This document shows, piece by piece, positions 540 through 13,912 of a stretch of 32,000 nt of DNA. Below the pieces are notes generated by a model. That model was not told the DNA's origin, did not search any database, and worked only from the letters and a program-made list of their open reading frames with translations. How positions within the stretch are numbered: the stretch's first letter is position 1; every line of letters begins with the position of its first letter. The stretch is from NCBI RefSeq assembly GCF_000260965.1, contig NC_017856.1, forward strand, positions 2,610,001 to 2,642,000, written 5' to 3'. The translations under genes and the position numbers were made by a program. This DNA comes from Methylophaga frappieri (GTDB lineage: Bacteria > Pseudomonadota > Gammaproteobacteria > Nitrosococcales > Methylophagaceae).

Positions 540-698
540 CAATTTGAAATATTTCCATCAGATCAGTCATGCTCTAAAGCTTATAAGCCCTGAGGCCTTG
601 CAATCTAACAGGTGTTACTTCCTGGTGTAACTGTTACTAACTTCTATAGACATGGAACATCGAGCAAGCTAGAACTAAAACCAGATGAAGAGGTAACC

Positions 699-1382
699 AT
701 GAAAAACGTTATTTCGAAACCGTTGGCCACTGTAATGCTTTCGTTCTTATCACAGACTTCTAGTGCTGAAATTCTTGACTATTACGAGTGCCATCAAATC
801 TCCAGTTATTATCATGAGACCCTGCCAGGACTCATGGCTGATGTTCACCAAGCATACGAAAACTATTCTGGAACAGCTTACTCCTCTTATCTGGAGCACT
901 ATCAATATTTCAGTGATCGTAAAGAAAAACTAATAGATGAACTAGAAGATGGCGGAGCAAGTGACTGGATGCTTTATAGACATCATGCCGCTCAGTACAT
1001 TCAACAAGCGTCAATGGCCTCACTGTCAGCGCTGAGTATTACAAGCCCGATTTACGGTCCTTTTGTGTCGATAGTGGGTATGTCTCAGTCATTAATGGCT
1101 GAGGATCTTGAAGGCATATTTCTCAATTCTCTGGGTATTACTGGCGTCAATGTCATTGCAGGATTAACAACGGCACGTGAAATGGTTACTTCTGCCGCCT
1201 CGATGCAAGAGTTTGAGAGTAAGCATGGTGACTTGCGGCAATTTCTACTGGATCGCTTTGAAGCGGTTGAATATCAACTTCAGCGAGCAGAAAGCGCCAT
1301 GGACGCCCATGAGAGAGTGACTGAGGTTCACCTTCTTCAACAGACACTTTCAGCCTATTTGGTCAACTACTGCGCTAATTAG
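699..1382 (+). CDS. hypothetical secreted protein
   Basis: The ORF track starts at 612. I prefer ATG 699 because it follows GAAGAGG and gives a signal-peptide-like N-terminus (MKNVISKPLATVMLSFLSQTSSA/EI). There is a hydrophobic Gly/Ser/Ala-rich central stretch (SPIYGPFVSIVGMS...GITGVNVIAGLTTA). No family recognised. Confidence 0.5.
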   Translation: MKNVISKPLATVMLSFLSQTSSAEILDYYECHQISSYYHETLPGLMADVHQAYENYSGTAYSSYLEHYQYFSDRKEKLIDELEDGGASDWMLYRHHAAQYIQQASMASLSALSITSPIYGPFVSIVGMSQSLMAEDLEGIFLNSLGITGVNVIAGLTTAREMVTSAASMQEFESKHGDLRQFLLDRFEAVEYQLQRAESAMDAHERVTEVHLLQQTLSAYLVNYCAN

Positions 1383-1537
1383 GGGCCAAGCCCATGTCTT
1401 CTTTTATCAGACCAATCGGATACAGACTCGTCAATCAATCTGACAGAAATGGGCCTGAGGTGGTGCTGGCTACTCGTATTTTAGAAAGCTGGCTTTTAAA
1501 GCCTCTTGTAGCTAAACATTTAATAAGGAACTCAGCT

Positions 1538-3034
1538 ATGAGCAGTGTAAGTAAATATCTTTTAATACTGTCCCTCATCCTTTTGGCTTTGGGTTCGCGA
1601 ACCGTATTTGCTGCCAGTGTTGTGGGCGTTAGCAGTTCTTATGACTTCAAGTTCAATGCACGCGTCAGTCTCGGTCATGATATTGACGTTCCTGTTTACA
1701 TGGATGAGACCAGTAAGGTCGATGATCATAAGATTTTCAAAATATTTGTTATCCCGCCTGTGCTGATTGACTGGGATGGGTTCCAAGCCAAATATGAAAG
1801 ACTCTGTCCCGCGAGCGAACAGGAAAAAAAAGTCGATTTTAAATATCCTTATTCGTTAATCAGCAAAACGCTGATTCAGCAAGTCAATGAACAGTCTAAC
1901 GCGTGGCTAAGTGACTTGTTCGAAAATGCCAACGCCGTCTACCCAGGGCACACCCATCAGAATATCTCTAACATTCCGTACTATCAGTACACGCTTTATG
2001 CCGGCCGGTACTTCAAATCTGCGGGGATCATCGTCGACCAGTTCCCTCCCGAGCCCAGCGGTGTTTCCCTTCAGTCGTTGCCGTCAAACCCCATGCTGTA
2101 TTTCGAGCAGATCGCTTGTGTGGATCTTAAAGAGATCATAGATCACAGAGAGATCAGTGGAGAAATCGCGATCAACAATAAAAACTACGAAGTGGACACG
2201 GTCGCCTTCAGCGTTGCTCAATTTCTCAATTCTGATGTCGTCAATGACTTAACCCGAGAAGAAAAGCAAATAGGTCGAATCAGCAGCTCAAGTGACTCTT
2301 CTTTTGGCGGAATCGCCATCAATCTGGGTGGTGGTAGTGGTCTTAGCCTGGGGGGAGGCGAAAACCATCAAACCCTCGATGACAGCCGGCAGCGCCTGGT
2401 TAATTCAGTCGCCTTATCAAAAGCCTTACGTGACTTTACATCAAGCGCCAGCTATACCGCGACGATTGAGTCAGACGCGGCATTTCACTTCAATTCATTA
2501 ATGACCATGGTAAAAGACGTGTTGCCCAGCCAACAGTTGACTTACATGCTTGGTGATGATGGCAGCTTGACCTTCACAAATGGCGAAGCTAGCCACGTGC
2601 TCTCCAGTGATGAAGTGAAGGCTGTTCTAAAAAACCAAAGGGACATCGATATTGGGGTAAAGGATGATCAGTCTTTTTCAGTGGGCCCTCCTGCTACAAA
2701 CAAAAAAAGACCTAAACAACCTGGTTTATCCGCCTCTAGAGAACGAAGTGTCGAGACAAAAACCAATGATGAAGCGGAATTAGATCTCGAAACAAATGTG
2801 CCCAAGTCAATTACCTTATACACCGTTGAAAAAGGAGAAATCAGGAAAGCCATTAATGGGTTGATAACGATCAGGCGATTAAAGAATGTCAAGGGCGAAG
2901 TCTTACCCATGCCAACCCCAAGAACCTACATGGTGAGCGTTGAAGAAGATGCTCAGACGAAAAAAATCAAAGAGCTGGAAGATCAGAATCGACAGTTGGA
3001 TCAGACAGTCAAAAATCTTTTGAAACGACTATAA
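1538..3034 (+). CDS. hypothetical secreted protein with Gly/Ser-rich segment and C-terminal coiled coil
   Basis: The ORF track starts at 1394. ATG 1538 is preceded by AAGGA (1525-1529) and gives a classic signal peptide (MSSVSKYLLILSLILLALGSRTVFA/AS). It contains SSSSDSSFGGIAINLGGGSGLSLGGGE and a heptad-like C-terminus (KKIKELEDQNRQLDQTVKNLLKRL). No family recognised. Confidence 0.55.
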   Translation: MSSVSKYLLILSLILLALGSRTVFAASVVGVSSSYDFKFNARVSLGHDIDVPVYMDETSKVDDHKIFKIFVIPPVLIDWDGFQAKYERLCPASEQEKKVDFKYPYSLISKTLIQQVNEQSNAWLSDLFENANAVYPGHTHQNISNIPYYQYTLYAGRYFKSAGIIVDQFPPEPSGVSLQSLPSNPMLYFEQIACVDLKEIIDHREISGEIAINNKNYEVDTVAFSVAQFLNSDVVNDLTREEKQIGRISSSSDSSFGGIAINLGGGSGLSLGGGENHQTLDDSRQRLVNSVALSKALRDFTSSASYTATIESDAAFHFNSLMTMVKDVLPSQQLTYMLGDDGSLTFTNGEASHVLSSDEVKAVLKNQRDIDIGVKDDQSFSVGPPATNKKRPKQPGLSASRERSVETKTNDEAELDLETNVPKSITLYTVEKGEIRKAINGLITIRRLKNVKGEVLPMPTPRTYMVSVEEDAQTKKIKELEDQNRQLDQTVKNLLKRL

Positions 3035-3056
3035 ATCAAAACGAGGGCTCTCAGTT

Positions 3057-3509
3057 ATGAAAATTGTATTCTCAAGTTTAGTGGCGGCAACTCTTCTTTT
3101 GACTGCCCCGGCTTTTGCGGACTGTCTCAGCGAACATATGGACAGACTCACTTCACAGGAGAGAAACGTAACCGTGAATTATGGTTTGTATTGTAAAGGA
3201 GGAGCTTGGAAGGATTTCAAGGGGTGTGTTGGCAGGGAGAAAAAAAATGAAACAAAAACTTTTCATCCAGAAAATGGATGGCTAATTGAGAGCTCCGAAC
3301 TTACGAATACGAAAAACCATAACAGAGCCAGCGCAGCCATTATCTCTACATCTAACAGCAGTGTGCAAATAGCGCTGGCATGTGATGCACATGGTTGTGA
3401 TCGCAGCAACAATCATGCTGAAACAAAGACGACCTTAAATGTTGCACTGAAAAGAATAGTCACCGGAGAGGATTATCAAGCCGTCCGGGCAGCTTGTGGG
3501 TTGGATTGA
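3057..3509 (+). CDS. small Cys-rich secreted protein, unknown function
   Basis: 150-aa ORF starting 22 nt after the previous stop. It has a signal peptide (MKIVFSSLVAATLLLTAPAFA/DC) and seven Cys in the mature part. No family recognised. Confidence 0.55.
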   Translation: MKIVFSSLVAATLLLTAPAFADCLSEHMDRLTSQERNVTVNYGLYCKGGAWKDFKGCVGREKKNETKTFHPENGWLIESSELTNTKNHNRASAAIISTSNSSVQIALACDAHGCDRSNNHAETKTTLNVALKRIVTGEDYQAVRAACGLD

Positions 3510-3562: not shown

Positions 3563-3597
3563 GCTCAGTGCACCAAGCGTCGCTTGGTGCACTGAGC
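3563..3597. repeat. perfect inverted repeat (17-nt arms, 1-nt spacer), possible stem-loop or protein-binding site
   Basis: GCTCAGTGCACCAAGCG t CGCTTGGTGCACTGAGC, with the arms exactly reverse-complementary. It lies 54 nt downstream of the 3509 stop. No U-tract follows on either strand, so it is not a canonical intrinsic terminator. Confidence 0.5.
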
Positions 3598-3691
3598 TAG
3601 CTACGATACCTGAAGATGCAGCGCATTCTCAATGAGCAGTTTTAGATGACTAGCAAGAGCGGTAAGTTTAGGTTGAATAGCCACCAACTTT

Positions 3692-4596
3692 TTAGACACT
3701 GATCAGCCGTTTATGAAATCGGTTTTCAAACTCTACAGGCGACATCTGATTATTGAAACTATGTCGTCGTTTTGAGTTATAAAACATCTCGATGTAATCG
3801 AAAATGTCATTTCTCGCTTCCTGTCTCGTCGAATAGATTTTTCGTTTAACTCGCTCACGTTTGAGTAACTGAAAAAAGCTCTCTGCAACCGCATTGTCAT
3901 GACAGTTTCCACGCCGACTCATGCTGCCTTCCAGGCCATGTGCCTTTAAAAATGCGCTCCAGTCATGGCTGGTGTATTGGCTACCCTGATCGGAATGCAC
4001 AGTGACAGGAGTCACCGGGTTTCGGCGCCAGACAGCCATAAGCAAGGCATTCAGCACCAGTTCCTTAGTGATGCGGGATTGCATCGACCAGCCGACGACT
4101 CTCCTGGAATACAAATCAACAACAACCGCCAGGTAAAGCCAGCCCTCATGAGTTCGTATATGCGTGATGTCCGTTACCCAGGCTTCATTGGGCGTGGCAG
4201 GACTGAACTGTCGTTTTAACCTGTTTGGTGTGACGATGTGCGGCTTACCTTTTGATGAGCGAGGTTTTCTGTACCCAACCTGCGCTTTGATGCCTGCCTG
4301 CTTCATCAGACGCAGCACGCGGTTCGGGCCACAATGTTCACCATATTCGCGTAGGTCGCTGTAAATCTTTCGATAGCCATACACCGCACCGGACTCTAGC
4401 CAGAACTGTTTAATAAGCCCTGATAACCGCTAGTCGGCTATAGTTCGGCTTGATTTGGGTGTTTTGAGCCAGGAATAAAAACCACTGGGGTGAACATCAA
4501 GCAATCGACATAATTTCCTGACCGGCCACATACGCTGGAATCGCTTGATAAAGGCGTACCTCACTCGGGGTGACTGGCGAAGTACGCCGCGGCTTT
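3692..4596 (-). pseudogene. IS3-family transposase OrfB (DDE/RNase H fold) interrupted by an in-frame TAG
   Basis: The DDE signature is present (WVTDITHI, HSDQGSQYTS, GNCHDNAVAESFF). The -1 frame entered at the slippery site reads ...SSRTIAD*RLSGLIKQFWLESGAVYGYRKIY, with TAG at 4432-4430. The ORF track therefore only reports the downstream 230 aa (3692..4384). Confidence 0.75.
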
Positions 4597-4839
4597 TTTT
4601 AGGATGTCTCGCTCTTCTGTAAAGCGTTTCAGTTCTTTTTGGAGGCGCTTTATTTCTGCATCAGCATCCGCTTTTTGCTGAAAATGCGGTGCTTCAGGAT
4701 CGTACTTCTTGATCCAGGCGTAAAGGCTATGTGTCGTGACGCCAAGTCGACGTGATACATCAGCTACTGAGTAACCACGATCAGTGATCTGACGAACGGC
4801 TTCGATTTTAAATTCTTCGGGATAACGTTTGTTGCTCAT
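4561..4839 (-). CDS. IS3-family transposase OrfA (helix-turn-helix)
   Basis: MSNKRYPEEFKIEAVRQITDRGYSVADVSRRLGVTTHSLYAWIKKY followed by a leucine-zipper-like region is typical of IS3 OrfA. I chose ATG 4839, behind GAGAGGTG, rather than the track start at 4887. Confidence 0.85.
   Translation of the reverse strand: MSNKRYPEEFKIEAVRQITDRGYSVADVSRRLGVTTHSLYAWIKKYDPEAPHFQQKADADAEIKRLQKELKRFTEERDILKKAAAYFASHPE
4593..4600 (-). other. programmed -1 ribosomal frameshift site (A AAA AAG) of IS3 orfAB
   Basis: The minus strand reads CCTAAAAAAAGCC (T7 at 4594-4600 on the plus strand). Frame 0 continues as KKAAAYFASHPE*. Frame -1 reads KKSRGVLRQSPRVRYAFIKRFQRMWPVRKLCRLLDVHPSGFYSWL and runs into orfB. 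Confidence 0.65.
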
Positions 4840-5002
4840 TTGCACCTCTCTGATTGCCATTTTGAATGGCTGAAAGGTGTCTAGCAAATTGGTGGCTATT
4901 CATATGGTCGTGCAAGAAAGATATTGGTTATCCGGCTTACCACAATAGTTGGTGAGAGTAATTGAGGCTTTGGTTATAGGTATGCAGAAATATATATGTA
5001 GT

Positions 5003-5728
5003 TTAGTTATTTAGCCATGAGCTATAGGCTTGAATGTCTATCATTGGAACGGTAGCACTGAGCTGAAGTTGTGAAATCAATTTGAATAAAAATGCGGTCG
5101 CGGGCTTACCTCCTGCGTGAACTGTATAATCATTTGCATCATAGCTTGAATGAAAATATCCATGCGCGGCCAAACAGCCAAAGTCAAGTTTTCCATCACC
5201 CTTTTCGCTTTTGAGGGCAGTGAGCAAGCTATTTCCGATAGCAGGACTCCAGTCGCTTTCGAAAGTTAGTAGCCCACCATAAATTGGTATCAATGGCTTA
5301 GGTGGGTATGTTCCACCTGCATATGGAATGGGCAAGCTAGTGCGGTGTAATCTACGCACGCTTTGGACTTTCTCTTGTGCATATTTGACATGATCAAGGT
5401 TGGCAGACTGTTTAGCTTCAAAGACGGCATAGACACTTTCCGCAGGAATAATGATCTGACCTTCAAAATGAAAGATGAAAGGGGTGTACTGCCTATCATA
5501 AATAACTACATCTATTTGCTGGCTAAAATTGTTTTTGCTATCAACAACATGTGCCTTATCAGCTTTGTAGCGGGAAGGGAGATATTTGTTGAATAGATCG
5601 ATCCAAACAGTTTCACTCGCATCACCCTTTGTACCTGGATGCTTGATTGTGCTTCGAACAGTCTCTAGACGCCGCTCAATGTCATCGTGCAGGCCTGATA
5701 AAATACTCTCTAGCGACCAGTCGCTCAT
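5003..5728 (-). CDS. nucC: CBASS effector, NucC-type restriction-endonuclease-fold DNase
   Basis: 241 aa beginning MSDWSL. It has a PD-(D/E)xK-like layout with QID73VVIYD and AVFE104AK106. Length, N-terminus and the D73 position fit the cyclic-trinucleotide-activated NucC family as I remember it. Its ATG overlaps the cap3 stop (ATGA), and it is the last gene of the CD-NTase operon. Confidence 0.8.
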   Translation of the reverse strand: MSDWSLESILSGLHDDIERRLETVRSTIKHPGTKGDASETVWIDLFNKYLPSRYKADKAHVVDSKNNFSQQIDVVIYDRQYTPFIFHFEGQIIIPAESVYAVFEAKQSANLDHVKYAQEKVQSVRRLHRTSLPIPYAGGTYPPKPLIPIYGGLLTFESDWSPAIGNSLLTALKSEKGDGKLDFGCLAAHGYFHSSYDANDYTVHAGGKPATAFLFKLISQLQLSATVPMIDIQAYSSWLNN

Positions 5729-6243
5729 TCCATGTCCTTTTCATTACAAAGTATGTTGCTTTCAGAATTTGTATTGGTATCTTCTATTACAATGTTACAA
5801 GCGAGCTTATGACCAGAAGCCAAGTAGGTTCTGGCGCCAATTTGAATGCTTGCCTGCACATCGAGTTTTACAATAACGAGTACTAAGAAATTTACGGCTT
5901 CGCCTTGTTCGGAGAGGAGGTTGTTCATAGTTATCTCGTCCTGAATACTGGGCCAAGCTGGAGCGTTCGGATGAGAATGCCATTCACCAAGATAGTTATA
6001 GAGTAGAGGATTACCACCAATTTTTTGGTGAAGCGTCAGTATTTTCCTTCGTGCGCTACCTCCGTGACGCCTGAACGATGTTGCTGTTCCTCTCCAGAAT
6101 CGTTGCGGTGCCGCATCCAGTATACGGAAATCACCTATGTCAACCTGTTCACCGAAGAGAACACCACCGATCTCTGTGCCATCTGCCCGCTCTAGAGCTT
6201 CAAGCCATTGGTCAAGAATCTCTTTTGGTATCCTCAGTCTCAC
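5725..6243 (-). CDS. cap3: CBASS Cap3, JAB/JAMM-family isopeptidase
   Basis: It has TEIGGVLFG (upstream Glu) and EWHSHPNAPAWPSIQD, which is the JAMM motif HxHx7Sx2D. At 172 aa it is located after the E1/E2 gene and overlaps it by 32 nt. Confidence 0.85.
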   Translation of the reverse strand: MRLRIPKEILDQWLEALERADGTEIGGVLFGEQVDIGDFRILDAAPQRFWRGTATSFRRHGGSARRKILTLHQKIGGNPLLYNYLGEWHSHPNAPAWPSIQDEITMNNLLSEQGEAVNFLVLVIVKLDVQASIQIGARTYLASGHKLACNIVIEDTNTNSESNILCNEKDME

Positions 6244-7951
6244 TGCTCAAGTCCTGGAATAAGGATTGAATAAACGCTGACTCGCTTCCGGTGTCTTGTC
6301 CAATGCAAAAGGGTAGACGAATAGGCGCATTAACAACAATTGGACGAGTATCAAAAGGTCCCTTGAACATCCATCCACGCTTCAAGCCGATGAGGTACGA
6401 ATGTTCGTCATAGCTCGAGGGCTCAGTGTCCATCAGTGAGTCTAGTGTAAAGGCGACTATATGTGCGGAGAATACTGAAACATCTGCATCGCTAGCTTGC
6501 ATAAGCTCTGTTTGACCGATAGACCCGTCGTAACCACGTCCGGCAGCAATTGGTGGGGCTTCCTCTATAGTTTTGTAATACTGATTAACAGCTGAACGAA
6601 TGTCATAGGGTGAGGGATCTTTTCCAACTCTAGAGCGTGCTATTTCTCCACCTATGCCACCAGCATAAACTGCTCCCCAGACTAGTGTGCGATTATGGTG
6701 AATACACAGGTCTGCAACATGGTTAAATACATCAGGATTTGCAGATGCGTCTATAATTAGATCGCAGGATGCAAGCGCTTGACTTACATTCGCTGCTTCT
6801 TGAGAGGATATTTGTGCGCCTATGGCGCTCCTCCAGGTGCGACTCTTGACGCCGCGATGAATAAATTGAAGACGATCTGCAATCAATTCAACTTTGTGCT
6901 GACCAACATCTCGCCAGTCACCTTCATGCCGTTCTAGATTACCTATGTGTAGAACGTCCCCATCTACAAGTTCAAATTGACGTACGCCTGATCTTGCGAG
7001 AGAAATTGCGATTTTGGAACCGAGAGATCCAAGGCCTACGATACCCACCTTTTTCGTTTTGAGTGTTGCATGATTAACGCCACTTCGGTTTGCATCAAAC
7101 GGTGCTAACACAGTGGTGAAACTCATCAAATCATCATCATCTTTGAAGTGGCTTATCAACGTTAAGCCGCTATCAGAACTTTTTAGCAATACAGACCAAT
7201 TAGTATCACTTCGGAAACCCTCTCTATCCCCCAAAATATTCCACAGTTGTTTGAGCGTTTTTATCCCTTGTAACTTAGTTGTCGAGGTATTGGTGATGTA
7301 AATAGTGCCATTTTGTACTACACATAACTTCCTTAGGGCTTCTGGGGTTAACAAAGGCTTTGTATTTGCCGCCTCACCGCCAATTGATAGAAGATGTGCA
7401 ATCATAGATCTGCCGCTGCGATATTCGATTCCAACTTCAATAGGCAGACGGTCCAGGTTGTCATCGTTAAGGACTAGGCGTGCAACAGGATCTACATAAA
7501 AGCGTTTTAGCTCGGATCTGAGTGATATTATTTCAGGTACATCATGTGCGGAAGGTGCATGAACGGCTTCACCATTTTCACTTTCTGTTTCAGCTTCTAA
7601 GAGACGACGTGCACTTTCAATCATATTGGAGCCAGTAACGTCTGGCGTCCAGTTGTCATTGCGGATGTCAAGACATAGTTCACCACCTTTCCCATATTGG
7701 TGGCCAGATAGTCTTGTTTCGCTATCTGTAGGACGAATACTTGGAGGACCTGCGGGAAATGTGTTGTGATAAGTTAGATTTAGTGAAAAGGATCCACGTG
7801 TGATATTGATGTCGAATATCAGATTTAACTGTAACTGCTTATCAACAAACCATCTCGGGTTTTGAAACCATTCTGCGTCGAGCGATTCTATAGCCTCTCG
7901 CTCCTTTTTCAATCTCGATTGTTCCGTCAACCACCACATATCATCAGGCAA
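6212..7951 (-). CDS. cap2: CBASS Cap2, E2-like / E1-like (ThiF/MoeB) fusion protein
   Basis: The N-terminal part has a UBC-like Cys context (GHQYGKGGELCLDIRNDNW). The central part has an E1 Rossmann motif (KVGIVGLGSLGSKIAISLARSGVRQFELVDGDVLHIGNLERH). It is 579 aa and overlaps the CD-NTase stop by 8 nt. Confidence 0.85.
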   Translation of the reverse strand: MPDDMWWLTEQSRLKKEREAIESLDAEWFQNPRWFVDKQLQLNLIFDINITRGSFSLNLTYHNTFPAGPPSIRPTDSETRLSGHQYGKGGELCLDIRNDNWTPDVTGSNMIESARRLLEAETESENGEAVHAPSAHDVPEIISLRSELKRFYVDPVARLVLNDDNLDRLPIEVGIEYRSGRSMIAHLLSIGGEAANTKPLLTPEALRKLCVVQNGTIYITNTSTTKLQGIKTLKQLWNILGDREGFRSDTNWSVLLKSSDSGLTLISHFKDDDDLMSFTTVLAPFDANRSGVNHATLKTKKVGIVGLGSLGSKIAISLARSGVRQFELVDGDVLHIGNLERHEGDWRDVGQHKVELIADRLQFIHRGVKSRTWRSAIGAQISSQEAANVSQALASCDLIIDASANPDVFNHVADLCIHHNRTLVWGAVYAGGIGGEIARSRVGKDPSPYDIRSAVNQYYKTIEEAPPIAAGRGYDGSIGQTELMQASDADVSVFSAHIVAFTLDSLMDTEPSSYDEHSYLIGLKRGWMFKGPFDTRPIVVNAPIRLPFCIGQDTGSESAFIQSLFQDLSSETEDTKRDS

Positions 7952-8957
7952 ACTTTGCAGGCCGTTCCGTCGGTGCTGCTTCAGTTCCAGTAAAGCTCAG
8001 GGGTGACATCGTTATTGCTGAACTTTTGGTAGAGTTGGTTGACTGTTTTGGTTTTGGGAACCGTTCACCGAAGATTTTGCGCCAATATTCACATGCTTTT
8101 TCTTCATCGTCTTCTTTGAGGGCTTTTGCTGAGTTGTCCCTGTGCGTTTTGACCTTGTCGTAATATGCACAGAACTCTTCATCCGTAACACCAGATAAAA
8201 TATCCCCTCCAGGGACTGCGGGATCTTCAAGAACCGGACATATGCTGAACAAGCGATCATCTTCATACAAATCAAGAAAGTTTTGACACCAATCATGGAA
8301 TAGCTGACCGTAGTGAGTCTCAATTTCACTGATGTTTGGAGCGATGAATGCTTCCAGTGCAAAACTTTTAGGGTGTCGCGATACGGTCTTGTTATGTCTA
8401 CGAGCCCATTTAACCATTCGAGTCAGCGAATTAAATCGCCCTGAACAACGCTTATTTTGTTGTGCTGACCAGTTTGTGTGCTCTTCTGGATCGGTTTTGT
8501 ACCATTCACCAGTTATACGATTGCCGATACGGTACAAGGCATCGTGCTGTCTCTCCAAAAGAGGTGAAACATCAAGGTCAGCTTTGTTCATTGATAAGGC
8601 GATCGAGCACCGATTCCGTTTAAGTGAGGTAATGCCAAGATCTTTGCGTGCTCGATTGAGGGCCGCGTATATCTCATCCATAAGATCTGATGGATCTGAA
8701 AATAAAGGACTACCATCCACAACGACATACAGATCCACGTCAGGCCGTTCGGTCGAGCCATTTTTTACTCTTGGCCTTATAGCCGTAGAGCGCTTATAGG
8801 AGCCGCCTAGAATGATTCGTTTGATTTTGTTCTTGAGTTCATCGTCATTCAAAAGCGCAGTGCGCACGTCCTTGTGAGCACTTTGACAATTCGAGACAGT
8901 AGTGTTGCTCGGTGTGATGTCTTTGATGAATTCACTAAATCTAGCATTAGGTGTCAT
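7944..8957 (-). CDS. CBASS cGAS/DncV-like nucleotidyltransferase (CD-NTase)
   Basis: It has the Pol-beta NTase signature GGSYKRSTAIRPRVKNGSTERPDVDLYVVVD (GS...DxD) and a third acidic motif, KADLDVSP. I chose ATG 8957 (MTPNARFSEFIKDITP). The track start at 9056 would overlap the nrdB stop and cross the tandem repeats. The tail is low-complexity and ends in AKFA. Confidence 0.8.
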   Translation of the reverse strand: MTPNARFSEFIKDITPSNTTVSNCQSAHKDVRTALLNDDELKNKIKRIILGGSYKRSTAIRPRVKNGSTERPDVDLYVVVDGSPLFSDPSDLMDEIYAALNRARKDLGITSLKRNRCSIALSMNKADLDVSPLLERQHDALYRIGNRITGEWYKTDPEEHTNWSAQQNKRCSGRFNSLTRMVKWARRHNKTVSRHPKSFALEAFIAPNISEIETHYGQLFHDWCQNFLDLYEDDRLFSICPVLEDPAVPGGDILSGVTDEEFCAYYDKVKTHRDNSAKALKEDDEEKACEYWRKIFGERFPKPKQSTNSTKSSAITMSPLSFTGTEAAPTERPAKFA

Positions 8958-8992
8958 TTCATGGAGCCTACCTAGTGGTTGATTTTGATCTC

Positions 8993-9029
8993 TGCATTTT
9001 ATGGTCGTAAAATTGCATCTTATGGTCGT
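8993..9029. repeat. tandem direct repeat TGCATYTTATGGTCGT x2, 21-bp period, in the nrdB-CBASS spacer (candidate operator or promoter element)
   Basis: 8993-9008 is TGCATTTTATGGTCGT and 9014-9029 is TGCATCTTATGGTCGT, matching at 15/16 positions. The start-to-start distance of 21 bp equals two helical turns. The repeat lies 36-72 nt upstream of the preferred CD-NTase ATG. In the coding orientation the proximal copy contains TAAAAT. Confidence 0.5.
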
Positions 9030-9046
9030 CCCTACAGGCTTTTCGT

Positions 9047-10219
9047 TTAGTCCCATTTAAGGCCAGCACCAGTCTGATACTCGGTAACCTTGGTCTCGAA
9101 GAAGTTCTTCTCCTTGCGCATATTGGCTTGTTCCTCAAGCCAGGGCAGGGTGGCGTCTGCGCCGGGGAAGGGTTCGGCAAAGCCAAGTTGTTTGGCGCGC
9201 CGGTTGACGACGTAACGGAATTGGCCGTGGTGCATTTCTTTTGAGTAACCTAAGATAGGGTCACGCAGAATATAGCTGGAGTAAATTTCTTCAGCGGCAT
9301 CGGCTTCTTCAAACATCTGCTGGATTTTTTTCGGGTCCAGTTTGACGTTTTCTTCTTTGATGATTTGTTTGCAGACCCGGATACCGAATGCGGCATGCAT
9401 GACTTCATCACGCATGATGTATTGCAGCTGTTCGGCAGTGCCTTTCATCAGGCCACGACGTTGCAGGGCGAAGATAGGCGAAAAGCCGTTATAGAACCAG
9501 GCGCCTTCAAATATGCCGGCAAAAAACGCGTAAGACATGACGAAGGTTTCCAGTTCGTCACGGTCACGCAGATCAATATCGCTGCGCAACACGGTATTCA
9601 GGCGGTCATTGGCAAATTTAATCTTTTGATAAATTTCCGGTACCACGCGGTAGCGGTTGTAGATTTCTGCCTGATCCAGGCCAATGGTTTCAATACAGTG
9701 CTGGTAAGTCCAGGTGTGCAGTGACTCTTCGTAAACCTGACGCGCCTGATAGATTTGCAACTCGGGTGCGGCCATTTTTTCCATGACTGCCAGACCGATA
9801 TTACGCATGGCGAGAATATCGGAGGTGGTCAGGTAAGACAGCACGTTTTCATAGACGTGACGTTCTTCCATCGTCAATTTATGACGATAGTCGTGAACGT
9901 CCTGCGCCATGTTGATATCCAGCGGCGTCCAGTGGTTTTTATTGGCATTTAAGAAAAATTGCCATGCCCACGGATATTTGAAGGGCGCCAACTGGTTAAT
10001 GTCGGTTTCGCCATTAACAACGCGTTTGTCATCGACATTGACCGGTTTGGCATTAACCGGCGGCAATTCGCTGACGCTGGCTTTGGTAGGTACCGGCGTG
10101 TCCAGTTCGTTGGCTGCTTGGACATTGCTGGCCGGCGCGGTTGCCGCCGGTTCGCTTTGTTCTTGCTCAGGTTTCGCCGCTGGAGCGGTGGAGAATGGAT
10201 CGTCCCAGTTAAGGTTCAT
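9047..10219 (-). CDS. nrdB: ribonucleoside-diphosphate reductase class Ia, beta subunit
   Basis: It has di-iron/tyrosyl radical protein features (EESLHTWTY, MRDEVMHAAFG, C-terminal ...YQTGAGLKWD). The N-terminus carries a Pro/Ala-rich extension of about 80 aa, as in Pseudomonas-type NrdB. I chose ATG 10219 (MNLNWDDPF), which overlaps the nrdA TGA as ATGA. Confidence 0.9.
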   Translation of the reverse strand: MNLNWDDPFSTAPAAKPEQEQSEPAATAPASNVQAANELDTPVPTKASVSELPPVNAKPVNVDDKRVVNGETDINQLAPFKYPWAWQFFLNANKNHWTPLDINMAQDVHDYRHKLTMEERHVYENVLSYLTTSDILAMRNIGLAVMEKMAAPELQIYQARQVYEESLHTWTYQHCIETIGLDQAEIYNRYRVVPEIYQKIKFANDRLNTVLRSDIDLRDRDELETFVMSYAFFAGIFEGAWFYNGFSPIFALQRRGLMKGTAEQLQYIMRDEVMHAAFGIRVCKQIIKEENVKLDPKKIQQMFEEADAAEEIYSSYILRDPILGYSKEMHHGQFRYVVNRRAKQLGFAEPFPGADATLPWLEEQANMRKEKNFFETKVTEYQTGAGLKWD

Positions 10220-13083
10220 TGGCAGGCCTCGCAATCTGGTTCCAGAATTGAACAGGCTTTCGGTGCATCCTGACCTTCGCCTGAAATAAAGTCATCTTCG
10301 GTTTTGCCGACCGGTTTTAAGGTTGGCGGTGCAGCGGGTTTCGGCGCACTGGTCGAGTTAGGCGTTGCGGCGGTTTTTTCCTGACCGGTGGCACCCATCG
10401 AACGCAGGTAATAGGTGGTTTTCAGGCCACGTACCCAAGCCAGTTTGTACAGGTTATCCATTTTCTTGCCCGAAGGTTCAGCCATGTACAGGTTGAGACT
10501 TTGCGCCTGATCCAGCCATTTTTGACGGCGTGAAGCGGCTTCAATCAACCAGCGGGCGTCCATTTCAAACGCAGTGGTGTAGAGCGATTTCAGCTCATCC
10601 GGCACACGATCAATCGATTGCAGGCTGCCATCGTAGTATTTGAGGTCGTTAATCATGACCTCATCCCACAAACCGCGATCTTTTAAGTCACCCACCATGT
10701 ACGGGTTGATAACGGTGAACTCACCAGACAGATTCGATTTGACGAAGATGTTTTGGTAAGTCGGTTCGATGGACTGACTGACGCCACAAATATTTGAAAT
10801 GGTCGCTGTTGGCGCAATGGCCATGGTGTTCGAGTTACGCATGCCTTGACGTTTGATTTTGTCACGCAGCATATCCCAGTCCATGGTTTTGCTATCGTCT
10901 TGTTGCAGGTATTCGCCACGGGCTTCTTGTAACAGTTTGATAGAGTCGATTGGCAAAATGCCTTTGCTCCACAGGCTGCCGTCATAAGATTGATATTTAC
11001 CACGTTCTGCTGCCAAGTCAGAAGACGCTTCAATCGCGTAGTAACTGACGGCTTCCATCGAGTCATCAGCAAATTTAACGGCTTCTTCTGAGGCATAAGG
11101 CACACGCAGTTTGTACAGCGCATCCTGGAAGCCCATGATGCCCAAGCCGACCGGGCGGTGCAGCAGGTTAGAGTGACGTGCTTGCGGCACACTGTAGTAG
11201 TTGTACTCGATGACGTTGTCGAGCATCCGCATAGCTGTGCGGATGGTTTTTTGCAATTTCTCTTTATCCAGTTTGCCGTTTTCGTCAACGTGTTTGACCA
11301 GATTGACCGAGCCGAGATTACAAACCGCAATCTCTTTATCAGAGGTGTTGAGTGTGATTTCAGTACACAGGTTAGAGCTGTGGACGACGCCAACGTGCTG
11401 CTGTGGGCTACGGATGTTGCAAGGGTCTTTAAAGGTCACCCACGGATGGCCTGTTTCGAACAGCATGCCCAGCATTTTGCGCCATAAATCGACGGCTGGC
11501 ATACGTTTGAAGTTGCGAATTTCACCCCGATCCGCTTTGGCTTCGTATTCGGCATAGGCTTTTTCAAACGCCAGACCGGTGAGATCATGCAGATCCTCGA
11601 CTTCTTCTGGTGAGAACAGGGTCCACTGGGCTTCTTCGACGACCCGCTTCATAAACAGATCCGGAATCCAGTTGGCGGTATTCATGTCATGCGTACGGCG
11701 ACGATCATCACCGGTGTTTTTACGCATATCGAGGAATTCCTCAACATCAATATGCCAGGTTTCCAGATAAGCGCAGACTGCACCTTTACGTTTGCCGCCT
11801 TGGTTAACAGCAACCGCTGTGTCGTTGGCCACTTTCAAAAATGGCACCACACCTTGTGATTTGCCGTTAGTGCCTTTGATATGGGCACCGAGACCACGAA
11901 CGCGTGTCCAGTCATTACCCAGACCACCAGCAAATTTAGACAGTAGGGCGTTGTCACGGATTGCACCGTAAATACCACTGAGATCATCCGGTACTGTTGT
12001 CAGATAGCAAGACGACAATTGTGGACGCAGGGTGCCTGAGTTAAACAGCGTGGGGGTCGAGCTCATAAAGTCAAAGCTGGACAGCAGGTTATAAAACTCA
12101 ATGGCGCGGGCTTCTCGATCGATTTCGTTGATCGCCAGCCCCATCGCGACACGCATATAGAATGCCTGAGGCAGCTCAAAGCGGGTGCCGTCGTGATGAA
12201 TAAAGTAACGGTCGTAAAGTGTTTGCAGGCCGAGATAGGTAAACTCAAAATCCAGTTCAGGTTTTAGGGCTTTACCGAGTCGATCAAGATCAAACAGGGC
12301 GAGTTCGGAGTCCAGCAGTTCGTGTTCGATAGCGGTGTGGATATAGGATTTGAAGTAATCCGGATAAATCTCCGCCATTTCACTTTGTTTCGCTTGTTTG
12401 TGCGTTTTGTAAACAAAGCTGAGGGCTTCTCGACGGATGCCGTCCATTAACAAACGTGCAGCTAACGCACTGTAAGCGGGGTCTTTTTCGATAAAAGTAC
12501 GTGCACCCATGACCAGTGCTTTTTCCACATCACTGGCTTTCACACCATCAAACAGGTTGCGCTGTGTATCGCGCATGATGACGTCACGATCAACTTCAGC
12601 CAGTCCTTCACAGGCTTCGGTGATTAAATCATGCAAACGGTCAATATCGAGTGGTTGGCGTGAGCCATCAGCAGCGGTGATATGCAGGGTGGTTTCGTTG
12701 GCAGGTTTCGGATGTCTTTTTTCTTCTTCAGCACGTTTTTCGGCTTGTTTTTCACGATAAAGTACATACGAGCGGGCGATTTTGTATTCGCCAGCACGCA
12801 TCAGCGCTAATTCGACTTGATCTTGAATATCTTCGATATGCACTGTGCCACCGTCATCCAGACGGCGCAGCAAGTTTTCAGTGATCTGTTTGGTTAGCTC
12901 TGAAACCGTTTCATGGATCCGTCGGCTATTTTGGGCGGCGTCGCCTTCAACGGCCAGAAATGCCTTGGTCATGGCGACGGCAATTTTACTGCTATCAAAG
13001 TCAGTGACTTTGCCGTTACGGCGAATCACGTTGTAGCCAGATTCGGATGCGGATTGGGTGTATTGTGCTGCTTCACTCGCCAT
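10216..13083 (-). CDS. nrdA: ribonucleoside-diphosphate reductase class Ia, alpha subunit (tandem ATP-cones)
   Basis: Hallmark segments are NLCTEI, the active-site region, and the C-terminal Cys pair (EPDCEACQ). Two ATP-cone-like N-terminal segments are present (VIRRNGKVTDFDSSKI and TLHITAADGSRQPLDIDRL). I chose ATG 13083, behind CAGGGA. The track start at 13218 would read through the NrdR boxes. Confidence 0.95.
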   Translation of the reverse strand: MASEAAQYTQSASESGYNVIRRNGKVTDFDSSKIAVAMTKAFLAVEGDAAQNSRRIHETVSELTKQITENLLRRLDDGGTVHIEDIQDQVELALMRAGEYKIARSYVLYREKQAEKRAEEEKRHPKPANETTLHITAADGSRQPLDIDRLHDLITEACEGLAEVDRDVIMRDTQRNLFDGVKASDVEKALVMGARTFIEKDPAYSALAARLLMDGIRREALSFVYKTHKQAKQSEMAEIYPDYFKSYIHTAIEHELLDSELALFDLDRLGKALKPELDFEFTYLGLQTLYDRYFIHHDGTRFELPQAFYMRVAMGLAINEIDREARAIEFYNLLSSFDFMSSTPTLFNSGTLRPQLSSCYLTTVPDDLSGIYGAIRDNALLSKFAGGLGNDWTRVRGLGAHIKGTNGKSQGVVPFLKVANDTAVAVNQGGKRKGAVCAYLETWHIDVEEFLDMRKNTGDDRRRTHDMNTANWIPDLFMKRVVEEAQWTLFSPEEVEDLHDLTGLAFEKAYAEYEAKADRGEIRNFKRMPAVDLWRKMLGMLFETGHPWVTFKDPCNIRSPQQHVGVVHSSNLCTEITLNTSDKEIAVCNLGSVNLVKHVDENGKLDKEKLQKTIRTAMRMLDNVIEYNYYSVPQARHSNLLHRPVGLGIMGFQDALYKLRVPYASEEAVKFADDSMEAVSYYAIEASSDLAAERGKYQSYDGSLWSKGILPIDSIKLLQEARGEYLQQDDSKTMDWDMLRDKIKRQGMRNSNTMAIAPTATISNICGVSQSIEPTYQNIFVKSNLSGEFTVINPYMVGDLKDRGLWDEVMINDLKYYDGSLQSIDRVPDELKSLYTTAFEMDARWLIEAASRRQKWLDQAQSLNLYMAEPSGKKMDNLYKLAWVRGLKTTYYLRSMGATGQEKTAATPNSTSAPKPAAPPTLKPVGKTEDDFISGEGQDAPKACSILEPDCEACQ

Positions 13084-13125
13084 AAGAATATCCCTGCATT
13101 GTCTGAAAAGTCGATTTGCCACAAA

Positions 13126-13141
13126 CCACAATAAATTGTGG
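13126..13141 (-). promoter_or_regulatory. NrdR box 1 (proximal)
   Basis: CCACAATAAATTGTGG is a near-perfect 16-bp palindrome of the CACAAT-N-ATTGTG type expected for NrdR operators. Its centre is about 50 nt upstream of the nrdA ATG. Confidence 0.6.
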
Positions 13142-13157
13142 TCGAAATAAGATTGAA

Positions 13158-13173
13158 CCACAAGATAATGTGT
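13158..13173 (-). promoter_or_regulatory. NrdR box 2
   Basis: CCACAAGATAATGTGT, with its centre 32 bp (three helical turns) from box 1, which is the usual tandem NrdR-box spacing. It overlaps the candidate -10 element. Confidence 0.55.
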
Positions 13174-13190
13174 TTTTGAAAGTGGTGCAA
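13162..13190 (-). promoter_or_regulatory. candidate sigma70 promoter of nrdAB
   Basis: The minus strand reads TTGCAC (13190-13185), a 17-nt spacer, then TATCTT (13167-13162). The -10 element sits inside NrdR box 2. This is a pattern match only. Confidence 0.35.
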
Positions 13191-13200
13191 GGGGATAAAC

Positions 13201-13217
13201 TGCACATAAATTGTGCA
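13201..13217 (-). promoter_or_regulatory. possible third NrdR-like box
   Basis: TGCACATAAATTGTGCA has perfect 6-bp arms around TAAAT. It is about 43 bp upstream of box 2, so the phasing is less canonical. Confidence 0.35.
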
Positions 13218-13384
13218 TGATTTGTGGATAACTTAGGGGGGACTATCGGGTAAGGTAGAGACCATGCGCGATCCCTGTTGCATGTCTCTTTTTGGTGCGG
13301 TCTGAAAAATTTTTTTTGCAGGGTCGTTTTCGCTGCGTATTGACTGCCGCAACGAAAATCAACTCAAGCTGAGGCGGATAAATT

Positions 13385-13912
13385 TCAGATCGTTTCGGTG
13401 ATGCTGACTGCGCGACTACTCAGGATTTGTTTTGCCTGATTGACACCATCTCGGTTTTCGGCCTGAACAACAATGGTCCACTTATTATCAGCGCTGGCTT
13501 CAACAGTTTCTGTGATGAGCGGATCATGATCTGGGCGAAGGGAAATCGCACCCGCAATCATCATACCTATCATCAGACCGACAAAACCGAGTGCAAAATA
13601 AGTTGCGCCAGGGTTTGATTCAGTAAAAGTCGGACCAGCAGTAATCAAAATGCTGGCTAAAATCAAGCCGGCTAACAAGCCTACCACGCCCAGCACACCA
13701 TGTGATTTGAGGATGGTGCCAGCAATACCAGGACTGTCTGGCTCAATTTTATGGCTTAAATTAGCGTCATTTGGCTGAATGATATTGATAACATCCTGAG
13801 AAAAAAAGCCGGATTGTAGTAACGCTTTTTCTGCAGCACGGGCATCGGTTTCGTTATTAAAAACTGCCGCAATTTTGCCGGGATGTGCTTCATCAATCAG
13901 ATTGACGTCCAT
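13385..13912 (-). CDS. hypothetical membrane protein
   Basis: 175-aa ORF with GAGG upstream of its ATG. It has two or three hydrophobic helices (GVLGVVGLLAGLILASILITAG, YFALGFVGLMIGMMIAGAISL) flanked by soluble N- and C-terminal segments. No family recognised with confidence. Confidence 0.55.
   Translation of the reverse strand: MDVNLIDEAHPGKIAAVFNNETDARAAEKALLQSGFFSQDVINIIQPNDANLSHKIEPDSPGIAGTILKSHGVLGVVGLLAGLILASILITAGPTFTESNPGATYFALGFVGLMIGMMIAGAISLRPDHDPLITETVEASADNKWTIVVQAENRDGVNQAKQILSSRAVSITETI

What the first reader, a model, noticed from the sequence alone, without database searches (positions are those of the whole stretch)
5003..9046. Complete four-gene type II CBASS anti-phage operon (CD-NTase, Cap2, Cap3, NucC)
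Four minus-strand genes have overlapping stops and starts (8-nt, 32-nt and ATGA overlaps), which implies translational coupling. (1) The first is a Pol-beta-type nucleotidyltransferase with GS...DVDLYVVVD and DLDVSP motifs. (2) The second is a 579-aa fusion of an E2-like domain (GELCLD) and a ThiF/MoeB E1 Rossmann domain. (3) The third is a JAMM isopeptidase (HSHPx6SxxD). (4) The fourth is a 241-aa PD-(D/E)xK nuclease of NucC type. This is the canonical architecture of cyclic-oligonucleotide-based anti-phage signalling with ubiquitin-like regulation. It is the most notable accessory content in the window.
Basis: partly seen in the sequence, partly recalled or inferred. Interest (0 to 1): 0.85.

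Follow-up and report, generated by a model that had tools for sequence, protein, structure and literature searches.

The report
Type II CBASS operon with NucC nuclease
This is an intact but ordinary four-gene anti-phage "CBASS" suicide-signalling operon in Methylophaga frappieri, sitting in the remains of a Tn7-like transposon that inserted just after the ribonucleotide reductase genes.

Summary
Window 5003-8957 (minus strand) holds four intact, tightly packed genes:
- a CD-NTase (337 aa)
- a Cap2 E2-E1 fusion (575 aa)
- a Cap3 JAMM isopeptidase (172 aa)
- a NucC endonuclease (241 aa)

PADLOC profiles match all four over their full length (E = 1e-139, 5e-185, 2e-37, 4e-109).

Three small corrections apply.
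- The CD-NTase starts at 8957, so 8958-9046 is non-coding.
- Cap2 most likely starts at ATG 7939, which gives a 4-nt gap rather than an 8-nt overlap.
- The source is Methylophaga frappieri JAM7 (Q7C_2618-2620), where the genes carry only generic annotations.

The cyclase is clade-D-like. Its specificity residues (GGSY, Thr155, His160) predict 3'3'3'-cAAA, which is the NucC activator. Its invariant ...PAKFA tail matches known Cap2 substrates.

The same four-gene cassette occurs in at least 11 other marine proteobacterial genomes, so this is a new member of a well-known kind.

The context is new. The cassette lies between two copies of a Tn7-like right end directly after nrdB, which is a Tn7-like insertion hot spot in Methylophaga. 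An IS3 element cuts the distal copy, and no tns genes remain in the window.

The parts
7944..8957 (-). cdnD-like CD-NTase (337 aa). Catalytic residues D73, D75, D129; XGSX motif = GGSY (51-54); lid residues T155 and H160; disordered C-terminal tail ending ...RPAKFA (F336 and A337 invariant).
   Evidence: PADLOC Cyclase PDLC00773 E = 1.2e-139 with profile positions 1-334 on residues 34-370 of the long ORF. Pfam SMODS 1.1e-44. PDB 9sa4 B. cereus CdnD 2.6e-66. Invariant columns. Conserved termini in homologues. AlphaFold model pLDDT 90.4 matches CdnD at TM 0.8.
6212..7939 (-). cap2, an E2-linker-E1 fusion (575 aa from ATG 7939; 579 aa if TTG 7951 is used). E2 Cys89 is invariant. Adenylation motifs are G302xGxxG307, R316, D326, N334, R337, K349 and D397. 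Cys392 is the only conserved Cys in the E1 domain.
   Evidence: PADLOC E1-E2 PDLC00855 E = 4.8e-185, residues 5-571 of the 579-aa ORF. Pfam ThiF 5.9e-24 and UQ_con 7e-5. PDB Cap2 7to3/7tsq. 43-sequence alignment. Structure match to 7to3_A 4e-22. Cys mapping.
5725..6243 (-). cap3, a JAMM/JAB isopeptidase (172 aa, GTG start). Motif residues: E24, H89, H91, S99, D102.
   Evidence: PADLOC JAB PDLC00893 2.1e-37, residues 1-155 on profile 1-154. Pfam Prok-JAB 8.7e-10. Motif read from the sequence. RefSeq WP_050954412.1 has the same length.
5003..5728 (-). nucC, the cA3-activated PD-(D/E)xK DNA endonuclease effector (241 aa). Active site: D73, E104, K106 (IDx30EAK).
   Evidence: PADLOC 'Endonuclease (NucC)' PDLC00745 4.1e-109. 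PDB 6q1h 2.4e-106 and 6p7o E. coli MS115-1 NucC 1.7e-104, aligned end to end. 66-67% identity.
8993..9036 (-). Tn7-like right-end copy, starting 10 nt after the nrdB stop codon: TGTAGGG + ACGACCATAAGATGCA + ATTTT + ACGACCATAAAATGCA (two 16-nt sites, 21-nt period). It ends 35 nt before the cdnD ATG.
   Evidence: Direct repeat D3. The motif is rare in the window. The same TGT + site pair lies between nrdB and tnsA in Methylophaga loci L160, L162 and L163, and before tnsA fragments in L157, L159 and L161.
4903..4914 (-). Truncated second copy of the same right end (TGCACGACCATA), cut by the IS3 element. In the sister contig L035 it continues as TGTACGACCATAAGTTGCA... followed by tnsA-tnsB-tnsC-tniQ.
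   Evidence: Similarity between the window and L035 ends exactly at 4903. The two ends match at 26 of 32 positions, counted by eye from the alignment.
3674..4902 (-). IS3-family insertion sequence (orfA 4561-4887, orfB 3692-4384). It has 38-nt terminal inverted repeats. No matching target-site duplication was found.
   Evidence: Inverted repeat I1. Pfam HTH_Tnp_1 and rve. Flanks read from the sequence: GGT on one side, TAT on the other.

Best explanation
This is a functional-looking type II CBASS abortive-infection system.

Shown here by sequence and structure:
- four intact genes encoding a clade-D-like CD-NTase, Cap2, Cap3 and NucC
- every catalytic residue in place.

Inferred from characterised homologues:
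1. Cap2 adenylates the C-terminal Ala337 of the cyclase in its ThiF-type site. It passes the cyclase to a cysteine (E2 Cys89, possibly via Cys392) and ligates it to a lysine on a cellular target. This primes the cyclase.
2. Cap3, a Zn-dependent JAMM isopeptidase, removes the conjugate and restrains signalling.
3. On phage infection the cyclase makes a cyclic trinucleotide from ATP. The predicted product is 3'3'3'-cAAA, because the XGSX motif is GGSY (small first residue) and the Lid 2 residue is His160.
4. cAAA binds the NucC trimer and drives it into a hexamer. The paired D73/E104/K106 sites then cut double-stranded DNA, destroying the chromosome before phage progeny are released.

The cassette was acquired horizontally. 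It sits between two right-end copies of a Tn7-like transposon integrated just after nrdB. In this strain an IS3 element has cut it off from the transposition genes.
For: Family assignment.

Intactness and correct lengths.

Catalytic residues invariant across 38 cyclase and 43 Cap2 homologues.

C-terminal tail:
- 115 of 120 cyclases printed end in Phe-Ala, and 3 more carry 1-2 extra residues after FA.
- B. cereus CdnD ends KPGGFA. Its Ala331 is the residue conjugated to PspA lysines, and A331E abolishes immunity (PMC11153139).
- E. cloacae CdnD ends ...GRFA (preprint 10.1101/2022.03.31.486616).
- Residues 301-337 are low-confidence in the model, as expected for a disordered tail.

Product prediction: PMC13424991 reports that clade C/D enzymes with a small first XGSX residue and His at Lid 2 make cA3, while those with Gln at Lid 2 make cAAG. 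Here these are GGSY, T155 and H160, all invariant in the family.

NucC mechanism: PMC10419184.

Cassette conservation: the same gene order occurs in 11 genomes of Alpha- and Gammaproteobacteria.

Horizontal origin:
- GC is 0.446, against 0.497 for nrdAB.
- Transposon ends flank the cassette.
- A sister contig carries tnsABC-tniQ.
Against: Nothing was tested experimentally: no phage assay, no nucleotide product, no conjugate.

- No sigma-70-type promoter and no terminator were found between nrdB and the cyclase gene, so how the operon is transcribed is unknown.
- The promoter-like and SOS-box leader seen in alphaproteobacterial relatives is missing here.
- The Cap2 family lacks a cysteine in the predicted crossover loop, where E. 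cloacae Cap2 has its E1 cysteine C548. The E1 thioester step may therefore differ.
- The cA3 prediction rests on a rule drawn from a handful of characterised enzymes, and the cyclase is only 37% identical to the nearest one.
- NCBIfam's CBASS cyclase and Cap3 models hit only below their cut-offs.
Confidence: 0.88

Rival explanations
1. Same system, different signal. The cyclase makes 3'3'3'-cAAG or another trinucleotide as its main product, as E. cloacae and Salmonella CdnD do, and this NucC is tuned to that product.
For: After B. cereus CdnD, the next closest solved relatives are the cAAG-making E. cloacae and Salmonella CdnD enzymes. The specificity rule comes from few enzymes.
Against: The first XGSX residue is Gly, not the Gln of QGSI. 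Lid 2 is His160, not Gln, and both are invariant in the family. NucC is 66-67% identical to cAAA-activated NucC proteins.
Confidence: 0.12
2. The cassette serves mainly as a maintenance or competition module of the Tn7-like element, protecting or stabilising the transposon rather than acting as host immunity. In JAM7 it would then be a stranded leftover.
For: It lies between two transposon right ends at a Tn7-like hot spot. A different CBASS occupies the same place in L158. CBASS is frequent Tn7-like cargo (PMC8649781).
Against: The same cassette occurs in 11 other genomes with no tns genes within 8 kb. All four genes are still intact here although the tns genes are gone. Being transposon cargo and defending against phage do not exclude each other.
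Confidence: 0.08
3. The operon is silent or decaying. It lost its own promoter and regulatory leader when it was joined to the transposon end, so it is not expressed at useful levels.
For: No promoter-like site was found in the 89-nt spacer. Only CCACTAGGTA of the leader seen in relatives remains, 8 nt before the ATG.
Against: There are no frameshifts or premature stops, and lengths equal the family norm. A sister strain keeps the region at 96% DNA identity over 5.2 kb with the NucC protein identical. No terminator follows nrdB, so read-through transcription is possible.
Confidence: 0.07
4. It is not CBASS but another bacterial ubiquitin-like conjugation system (Bil, Bub or 6A-MBL type) that happens to sit next to a nucleotidyltransferase.
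For: NCBIfam gives weak hits of Cap2 and Cap3 to the '6A-MBL cap2_3' model. The Cap2 model also resembles BubCD.
Against: Those hits are far below the cut-off (90 and 38 bits against 320). No ubiquitin-like gene and no MBL gene are in the operon. The cyclase, Cap2, Cap3 and NucC all hit CBASS-specific PADLOC models over their full length.
Confidence: 0.01

Closest known systems
Bacillus cereus WPySW2 type II CBASS (CdnD-Cap2-Cap3-Cap4/Nuc-SAVED; PMC11153139, PMC13424991; PDB 9sa4)
   Same: - Closest solved cyclase: 37% identity over 333 residues, with the same numbering of SGSY/GGSY 51-54 and PDVD 72-75.
- C-terminus ends in Phe-Ala.
- Both are regulated by Cap2 and Cap3.
- Cap2 has just two conserved cysteines, at positions that fit B. 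cereus C91 and C403.
- cA3 is the demonstrated product in B. cereus and the predicted product here.
   Different: - The effector here is NucC, not a SAVED-nuclease (Cap4).
- The host is a marine gammaproteobacterium, not a Firmicute.
- The conjugation target (PspA in Bacillus) is unknown here.
E. coli MS115-1 and P. aeruginosa ATCC 27853 type III CBASS (CdnC/CdnD + HORMA + TRIP13 + NucC; PDB 6p7o, 6p7p; 6q1h is the closest NucC chain)
   Same: The NucC effector is 66-67% identical over the full length to 6p7o and 6q1h, with the same D73/E104/K106 site. The signal is cAAA.
   Different: Regulation there is by HORMA and TRIP13. Here it is by Cap2 and Cap3, and no HORMA or TRIP13 gene is in the window. 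The cyclases are only distantly related (E about 4e-4).
Enterobacter cloacae type II CBASS (CdnD02-Cap2-Cap3-Cap4; PDB 7to3, 7ljl)
   Same: Same regulatory architecture. The cyclase fold match is TM 0.8, and Cap2 is the best structural match. The cyclase tail ends ...RFA.
   Different: - The main product there is cAAG (QGSI motif, Gln at Lid 2).
- E. cloacae Cap2 has its E1 cysteine (C548) on the crossover loop, where this family has none.
- The effector is Cap4.
- Cap2 sequence similarity is confined to the E1 core (E = 9e-10).
Tn7-like transposons carrying defence cargo (Benler et al. 2021, PMC8649781)
   Same: - Terminal TGT followed by closely spaced direct repeats next to a conserved gene.
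- tnsA-tnsB-tnsC-tniQ in sister loci.
- CBASS and IS3 elements are both common inside such transposons.
   Different: - No tns genes are left in this window.
- The cassette lies between two right-end copies, and no left end was found.
- The terms 'ribonucleotide reductase' and 'nrd' do not occur in the main text of that survey.

Membership tests
Type II CBASS | CD-NTase gene with GS...DxD...D catalytic core and a cGAS/DncV-like fold | tested here: met
   G52-S53, D73, D75 and D129 are invariant. SMODS and PADLOC Cyclase hits. The model matches CdnD at TM 0.8.
Type II CBASS | Adjacent E1-E2 fusion protein (Cap2) | tested here: met
   PADLOC E1-E2 4.8e-185 over the full length. ThiF domain plus an E2-like N-terminus. 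Best structural match is E. cloacae Cap2, 7to3.
Type II CBASS | Adjacent JAB/JAMM isopeptidase (Cap3) with E...HxHx7Sx2D | tested here: met
   PADLOC JAB 2.1e-37 and Prok-JAB. E24, H89, H91, S99 and D102 read from the sequence.
Type II CBASS | Effector gene in the same operon | tested here: met
   nucC overlaps the cap3 stop codon by ATGA. NucC profile and PDB hits.
Type II CBASS | Cyclase with a disordered, conserved C-terminal tail ending in Gly or Ala (the Cap2 substrate) | tested here: met
   The tail is ...RPAKFA. F336 and A337 are invariant in 38 sequences, and 115 of the 120 printed end in FA. Residues 301-337 have low pLDDT. The rule comes from PMC11153139.
Type II CBASS | Synthesis of a cyclic oligonucleotide and protection against phage | not testable with these tools
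   Needs biochemistry and plaque assays.
NucC endonuclease | Full-length homology to solved NucC and the IDx30EAK active site | tested here: met
   66-67% identity, residues 1-241 aligned on 1-241. D73, E104 and K106 are present.
NucC endonuclease | cAAA-driven trimer-to-hexamer activation | not testable with these tools
   Inferred from homologues (PMC10419184).
CD-NTase clade D | Groups with clade D enzymes; motifs PDVD(I/L) and (L/M)D(L/V) | tested here: inconclusive
   The nearest characterised enzymes by sequence and fold are all CdnD. PDVDL and LDV are present. Placement on the published tree was not done, and B. cereus CdnD is itself described as intermediate between clades C and D.
Cap2 (E. 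cloacae / V. cholerae type) | E1 catalytic cysteine on the crossover loop (E. cloacae C548) | tested here: inconclusive
   No cysteine lies in the low-confidence loop 458-483 in any of 43 homologues or 6 further relatives. The only conserved E1-domain cysteine is Cys392, just before the DLIID strand. By position it corresponds to B. cereus C403, whose C403R mutant loses immunity. Residue-level superposition on 7to3 was not available.
Tn7-like transposon | tnsA, tnsB, tnsC and tniQ genes between right and left ends | tested here: not met
   No tns homologue is in the window. Only right-end-type repeats remain. Full sets are present in L035, L160, L162 and L163. The window holds a remnant, not a transposon.

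The most novel reading that the evidence does not exclude
The cassette may be an exchangeable right-end cargo module of a Tn7-like transposon family that targets the 3' end of nrdB. No such attachment site is mentioned in the one survey I checked.

In this strain the promoter and SOS-box leader found in relatives has been replaced by the transposon end, and no terminator follows nrdB. CBASS would then be expressed by read-through from nrdAB. That would tie the level of a suicide system to deoxynucleotide demand or replication stress.

A second, independent possibility concerns Cap2. This clade has no crossover-loop cysteine. It may pass the cyclase from the adenylate straight to the E2 cysteine, or use Cys392.
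Probability: 0.12. Interest if true: 0.5.

Novelty: new member of a known kind. Interest (0 to 1): 0.25.

Why it matters
It adds one more uncharacterised but clearly classifiable CBASS to the catalogue, in a methylotroph whose public annotation calls these genes only 'nucleotidyltransferase', 'ThiF family', 'Mov34/MPN' and 'DUF6602'.

Three points could be of practical use:
- It pairs a B. cereus-type cyclase and Cap2 with NucC, so the same priming machinery feeds a different, well-understood effector. That would make a convenient read-out for studying Cap2/Cap3 control.
- This Cap2 clade could help settle whether an E1 thioester is needed.
- The nrdB-proximal Tn7-like hot spot in Methylophaga shows how defence modules are swapped. 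Two different CBASS types were seen at the same site.

None of this changes current understanding of CBASS.

Tried and rejected
- **Type III CBASS or CRISPR-associated NucC.** Rejected. No HORMA, TRIP13, cas or CRISPR feature appears among the 38 of the window's 45 ORFs of at least 100 aa that were scanned; the seven left unscanned are nested inside scanned genes.
- **Bil, Bub or 6A-MBL ubiquitin-like systems.** Rejected. Only sub-threshold hits were found, and there is no Ubl gene.
- **The long 370-aa cyclase ORF overlapping nrdB.** Rejected in favour of the 337-aa form.
- **TTG 7951 as the Cap2 start.** Judged unlikely.
- **Promoter and terminator scan of 4300-9400.** It found nothing useful in the nrdB-cdnD spacer or after nucC.
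- **Rfam scan** of the window and three related loci: no hit.
- **The two 16-nt repeats as an operator of the CBASS operon.** Replaced by the transposon-end reading once the same pair was found in front of tnsA in other Methylophaga loci.
- **Metagenome scan with the 16-mer.** It returned 120 single chance matches, none next to tns or CBASS genes. Dead end.
- **Exact look-up of this NrdB.** Not on record.
- **A left transposon end between nucC and the second right end.** Only weak partial matches were seen by eye; not claimed.
- **The four plus-strand ORFs at 24-3509.** No Pfam or PADLOC hit for any of them, no meaningful PDB hit for the largest one (the only one searched), and the three found in the collection are orphans of this species.
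- **Megablast of the IS3 region against plasmids.** One short hit to an IS3 transposase only.


Full report
**Observation**

Window 5003-9056 carries four consecutive minus-strand ORFs. After correcting the starts they are:
- cdnD, 7944-8957 (337 aa)
- cap2, 6212-7939 (575 aa)
- cap3, 5725-6243 (172 aa, GTG start)
- nucC, 5003-5728 (241 aa)

Each has a single terminal stop codon. The ATGA overlap between cap3 and nucC and the 32-nt overlap between cap2 and cap3 are real.

The 8-nt overlap between cdnD and cap2 depends on a TTG at 7951. The PADLOC profile, the RefSeq protein and 42 homologues all begin at the ATG at 7939, 4 nt after the cdnD stop codon. Relatives have the same 4-nt gap. The long 370-aa reading of the cyclase, which would overlap nrdB, is not supported. 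Most of the 120 listed homologues are 337 aa long and start with MTPNARF or a close variant.

**Source**

All four proteins are exact matches to Methylophaga frappieri JAM7 proteins (Q7C_2618-2620). These are annotated only as nucleotidyltransferase, ThiF family adenylyltransferase, Mov34/MPN/PAD-1 and DUF6602. No paper in the searchable library links Methylophaga and CBASS.

**Identity of the four proteins**

PADLOC models match all four over their full length:
- Cyclase, 1.2e-139
- E1-E2, 4.8e-185
- JAB, 2.1e-37
- 'Endonuclease (NucC)', 4.1e-109

Pfam gives SMODS, ThiF (plus a sub-threshold UQ_con hit on the GELCLD region), Prok-JAB and DUF6602. NCBIfam's CBASS models hit only below their cut-offs, which explains the bland public annotation.

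Against solved structures:
- The cyclase matches B. cereus CdnD (9sa4, E = 2.6e-66, 37% identity over 333 residues). E. cloacae and Salmonella CdnD come next, and CdnC only weakly.
- NucC aligns end to end with E. coli MS115-1 NucC and the 6q1h NucC chain at 66-67% identity.
- The Cap2 E1 core matches E. cloacae Cap2, MoeB and ThiF. Its N-terminus matches E2 enzymes.

An AlphaFold model of the cyclase (pLDDT 90.4, pTM 0.83) superposes on CdnD structures at TM 0.77-0.80. Weaker matches follow to CdnB, CdnC, CdnE, CdnG and DncV. The Cap2 model (pLDDT 79) has E. cloacae Cap2 as its best match (E = 4e-22), followed by ThiF, MoeB and ATG7.

**Residues that matter**

- Cyclase: G51-G52-S53-Y54, P72, D73, D75, D129, T155, H160, F336 and A337 are invariant in 38 family members.
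- Cap2: Cys89 (E2) is invariant. The adenylation residues G302, G304, G307, R316, D326, N334, R337, K349 and D397 are invariant, and Cys392 is nearly so.
- Cap3: the full JAMM signature E24...H89-x-H91-x7-S99-xx-D102 is present.
- NucC: D73, E104 and K106 are present with NucC's IDx30EAK spacing.

**Mechanism, and what is inferred**

The cyclase tail is predicted to be disordered (residues 301-337). It ends ...RPAKFA. Of the 120 homologues printed, 115 end in Phe-Ala and three more carry one or two extra residues after it.

In B. cereus the cyclase ends KPGGFA. Its terminal Ala is ligated by Cap2 to PspA lysines, A331E abolishes immunity, and Cap3 reverses the conjugation (PMC11153139). E. cloacae CdnD ends ...GRFA and is adenylated in the Cap2 E1 site (preprint 10.1101/2022.03.31.486616). 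I therefore infer the same priming and de-priming cycle here.

The product is inferred from the rule in PMC13424991. Clade C/D cyclases with a small first XGSX residue and His at Lid 2 make 3'3'3'-cAAA, and those with Gln at Lid 2 make cAAG. This enzyme has GGSY, Thr155 and His160. cAAA is the ligand that drives NucC trimers into active hexamers (PMC10419184), so cyclase and effector fit together.

None of these steps was or could be tested here.

**One point of difference**

E. cloacae Cap2 carries its E1 cysteine (C548) on the crossover loop. In this Cap2 family the corresponding low-confidence loop (about 458-483) has no cysteine in any member.

The only conserved cysteine in the E1 domain is Cys392, just before the DLIID strand. 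The same two-cysteine pattern holds in more distant relatives from Bacillota and other phyla. By position it matches B. cereus C91 and C403, both required for immunity.

I do not hold the B. cereus sequence, so this mapping is positional only. I mark the feature as inconclusive.

**Distribution**

A genome scan found the same order, cyclase-Cap2-Cap3-NucC, at 55-79% cyclase identity in 11 genomes:
- Pseudohongiella
- Pelagibius
- Oricola
- a Caulobacteraceae MAG
- Parvibaculum
- Thalassospira
- Primorskyibacter
- two Marinicella
- a Parvibaculaceae MAG
- Parvularcula

Close relatives in Bryobacterales, Binatia and Rhodospirillales keep Cap2 and mostly Cap3 but lack NucC. The cassette is thus a recurrent mobile unit and not peculiar to this genome.

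**Context, beyond the finding**

*Repeats next to nrdB.* Ten nucleotides after the nrdB stop codon the sequence reads TGTAGGG-ACGACCATAAGATGCA-ATTTT-ACGACCATAAAATGCA (9036-8993). The 9-mer ACGACCATA occurs only three times in the window, all on the minus strand, against 0.11 expected. The third copy (4911-4903) abuts the right end of an IS3 element at 3674-4902.

*Sister contig.* L035 is 96% identical to the window over 4903-10054. It has the same nrdAB-CBASS arrangement, but after nucC it continues TGTACGACCATAAGTTGCA... followed by tnsA, tnsB, tnsC (TniB) and a 755-aa TniQ. Similarity to the window stops exactly at the IS3 junction. The two repeat blocks match at 26 of 32 positions, counted from the alignment.

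*Other Methylophaga genomes.* The same 'TGT + two sites 21 nt apart' lies about 12 nt after nrdB and about 79 nt before tnsA-tnsB-tnsC-tniQ in L160, L162 and L163. It also lies in front of tnsA fragments in L157, L159 and L161. In L158 a different CBASS (SMODS + E2-CBASS + patatin) follows nrdB.

*Reading.* The 3' flank of nrdB is an insertion hot spot for a Tn7-like family in Methylophaga. The NucC CBASS lies between two right-end copies. In JAM7 the IS3 has no matching target duplication, and its far flank is unrelated to the sister contig. I infer that it removed or displaced the transposition genes.

CBASS and nested IS3 elements are both known Tn7-like cargo (PMC8649781). The main text of that survey does not contain 'ribonucleotide reductase' or 'nrd'. 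No left end was found, and the other CBASS loci have no tns genes nearby.

The cassette's GC content (0.446) is below that of nrdAB (0.497).

**Expression**

No sigma-70-like promoter or intrinsic terminator was detected between nrdB and cdnD, and no terminator after nucC.

Seven alphaproteobacterial relatives (L002-L007 and L015) share a GAAC-N7-GAAC direct repeat ending about 10 nt before the cyclase ATG. Five or six of them also share a CTTGGC-N17-CTAAA promoter-like pair upstream of it. The repeat is the alphaproteobacterial LexA box (PMC3091678). That leader is absent here; only CCACTAGGTA survives. Read-through from nrdAB is possible but unproven.

**Verdict**

This is a new, uncharacterised member of a well-known system type that standard tools detect, so I score interest at 0.25 rather than 0.85. 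The transposon context and the Cap2 cysteine pattern are the only features a specialist might want to follow up.

Noticed in passing
window 8993-9036 and 4903-4914; loci L035, L157-L163: The 3' flank of nrdB is a Tn7-like insertion hot spot in Methylophaga. The pattern is TGT plus two ACGACCATAA-type sites 21 nt apart, then tnsA-tnsB-tnsC-tniQ (L160, L162, L163, L035) or tnsA fragments (L157, L159, L161). In the window the CBASS lies between two such right-end copies and no tns genes remain.
   Followed up: partly
window 3674-4902: An IS3-family element with 38-nt inverted repeats has no matching target-site duplication (flanks GGT and TAT). It cuts the second transposon end after ACGACCATA. 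The DNA beyond it is unrelated to the sister contig, which suggests an IS-associated deletion or rearrangement.
   Followed up: partly
L158:8396-11172: In another Methylophaga contig a different, type II-short CBASS (420-aa SMODS cyclase, E2-CBASS, patatin phospholipase) sits directly after nrdB. Two CBASS types therefore occupy the same chromosomal site in the genus.
   Followed up: no
L002, L003, L004, L005, L006, L007, L015: about 7900-8000 (upstream of the cyclase): These seven alphaproteobacterial relatives of the cassette share a GAAC-N7-GAAC direct repeat, the alphaproteobacterial LexA/SOS box, just before the cyclase ATG. Five or six of them also have a CTTGGC-N17-CTAAA promoter-like pair upstream. 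This hints that the relatives are DNA-damage inducible. The leader is absent from the window.
   Followed up: partly
window 6212-7939 (Cap2 residues about 458-483 and Cys392): This Cap2 family has no cysteine in the predicted crossover loop, where E. cloacae Cap2 has its E1 cysteine. The only conserved E1-domain cysteine sits next to the adenylation-site strand.
   Followed up: partly
window 24-3509 (+): Four plus-strand ORFs (171, 256, 546 and 150 aa; the last has a signal-peptide-like N-terminus). None has a Pfam or PADLOC hit, and the 546-aa protein (the only one searched against PDB) has no meaningful match. The three found in the protein collection belong to clusters of one or two members seen only in M. 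frappieri; the 171-aa sequence is not in the collection. GC is 0.448. They may be leftover island cargo.
   Followed up: partly
window 3563-3597: A perfect 17-bp inverted repeat (GCTCAGTGCACCAAGCG / CGCTTGGTGCACTGAGC) lies between the last orphan ORF and the IS3 element. It may be a terminator.
   Followed up: no
window 18888-19655 (+): A metallo-beta-lactamase-fold protein between an NlpB/DapX lipoprotein gene and purC has a sub-threshold hit to the anti-Pycsar Apyc1 family (28 bits against a cut-off of 50). It is probably a housekeeping MBL hydrolase.
   Followed up: no
window 9047-17831: The gene order dapA, AhpC-type peroxiredoxin, methyl-accepting chemotaxis protein, a 175-aa protein of unknown function, nrdA, nrdB is conserved across Methylophaga contigs. 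This marks the core-genome side of the island.
   Followed up: partly
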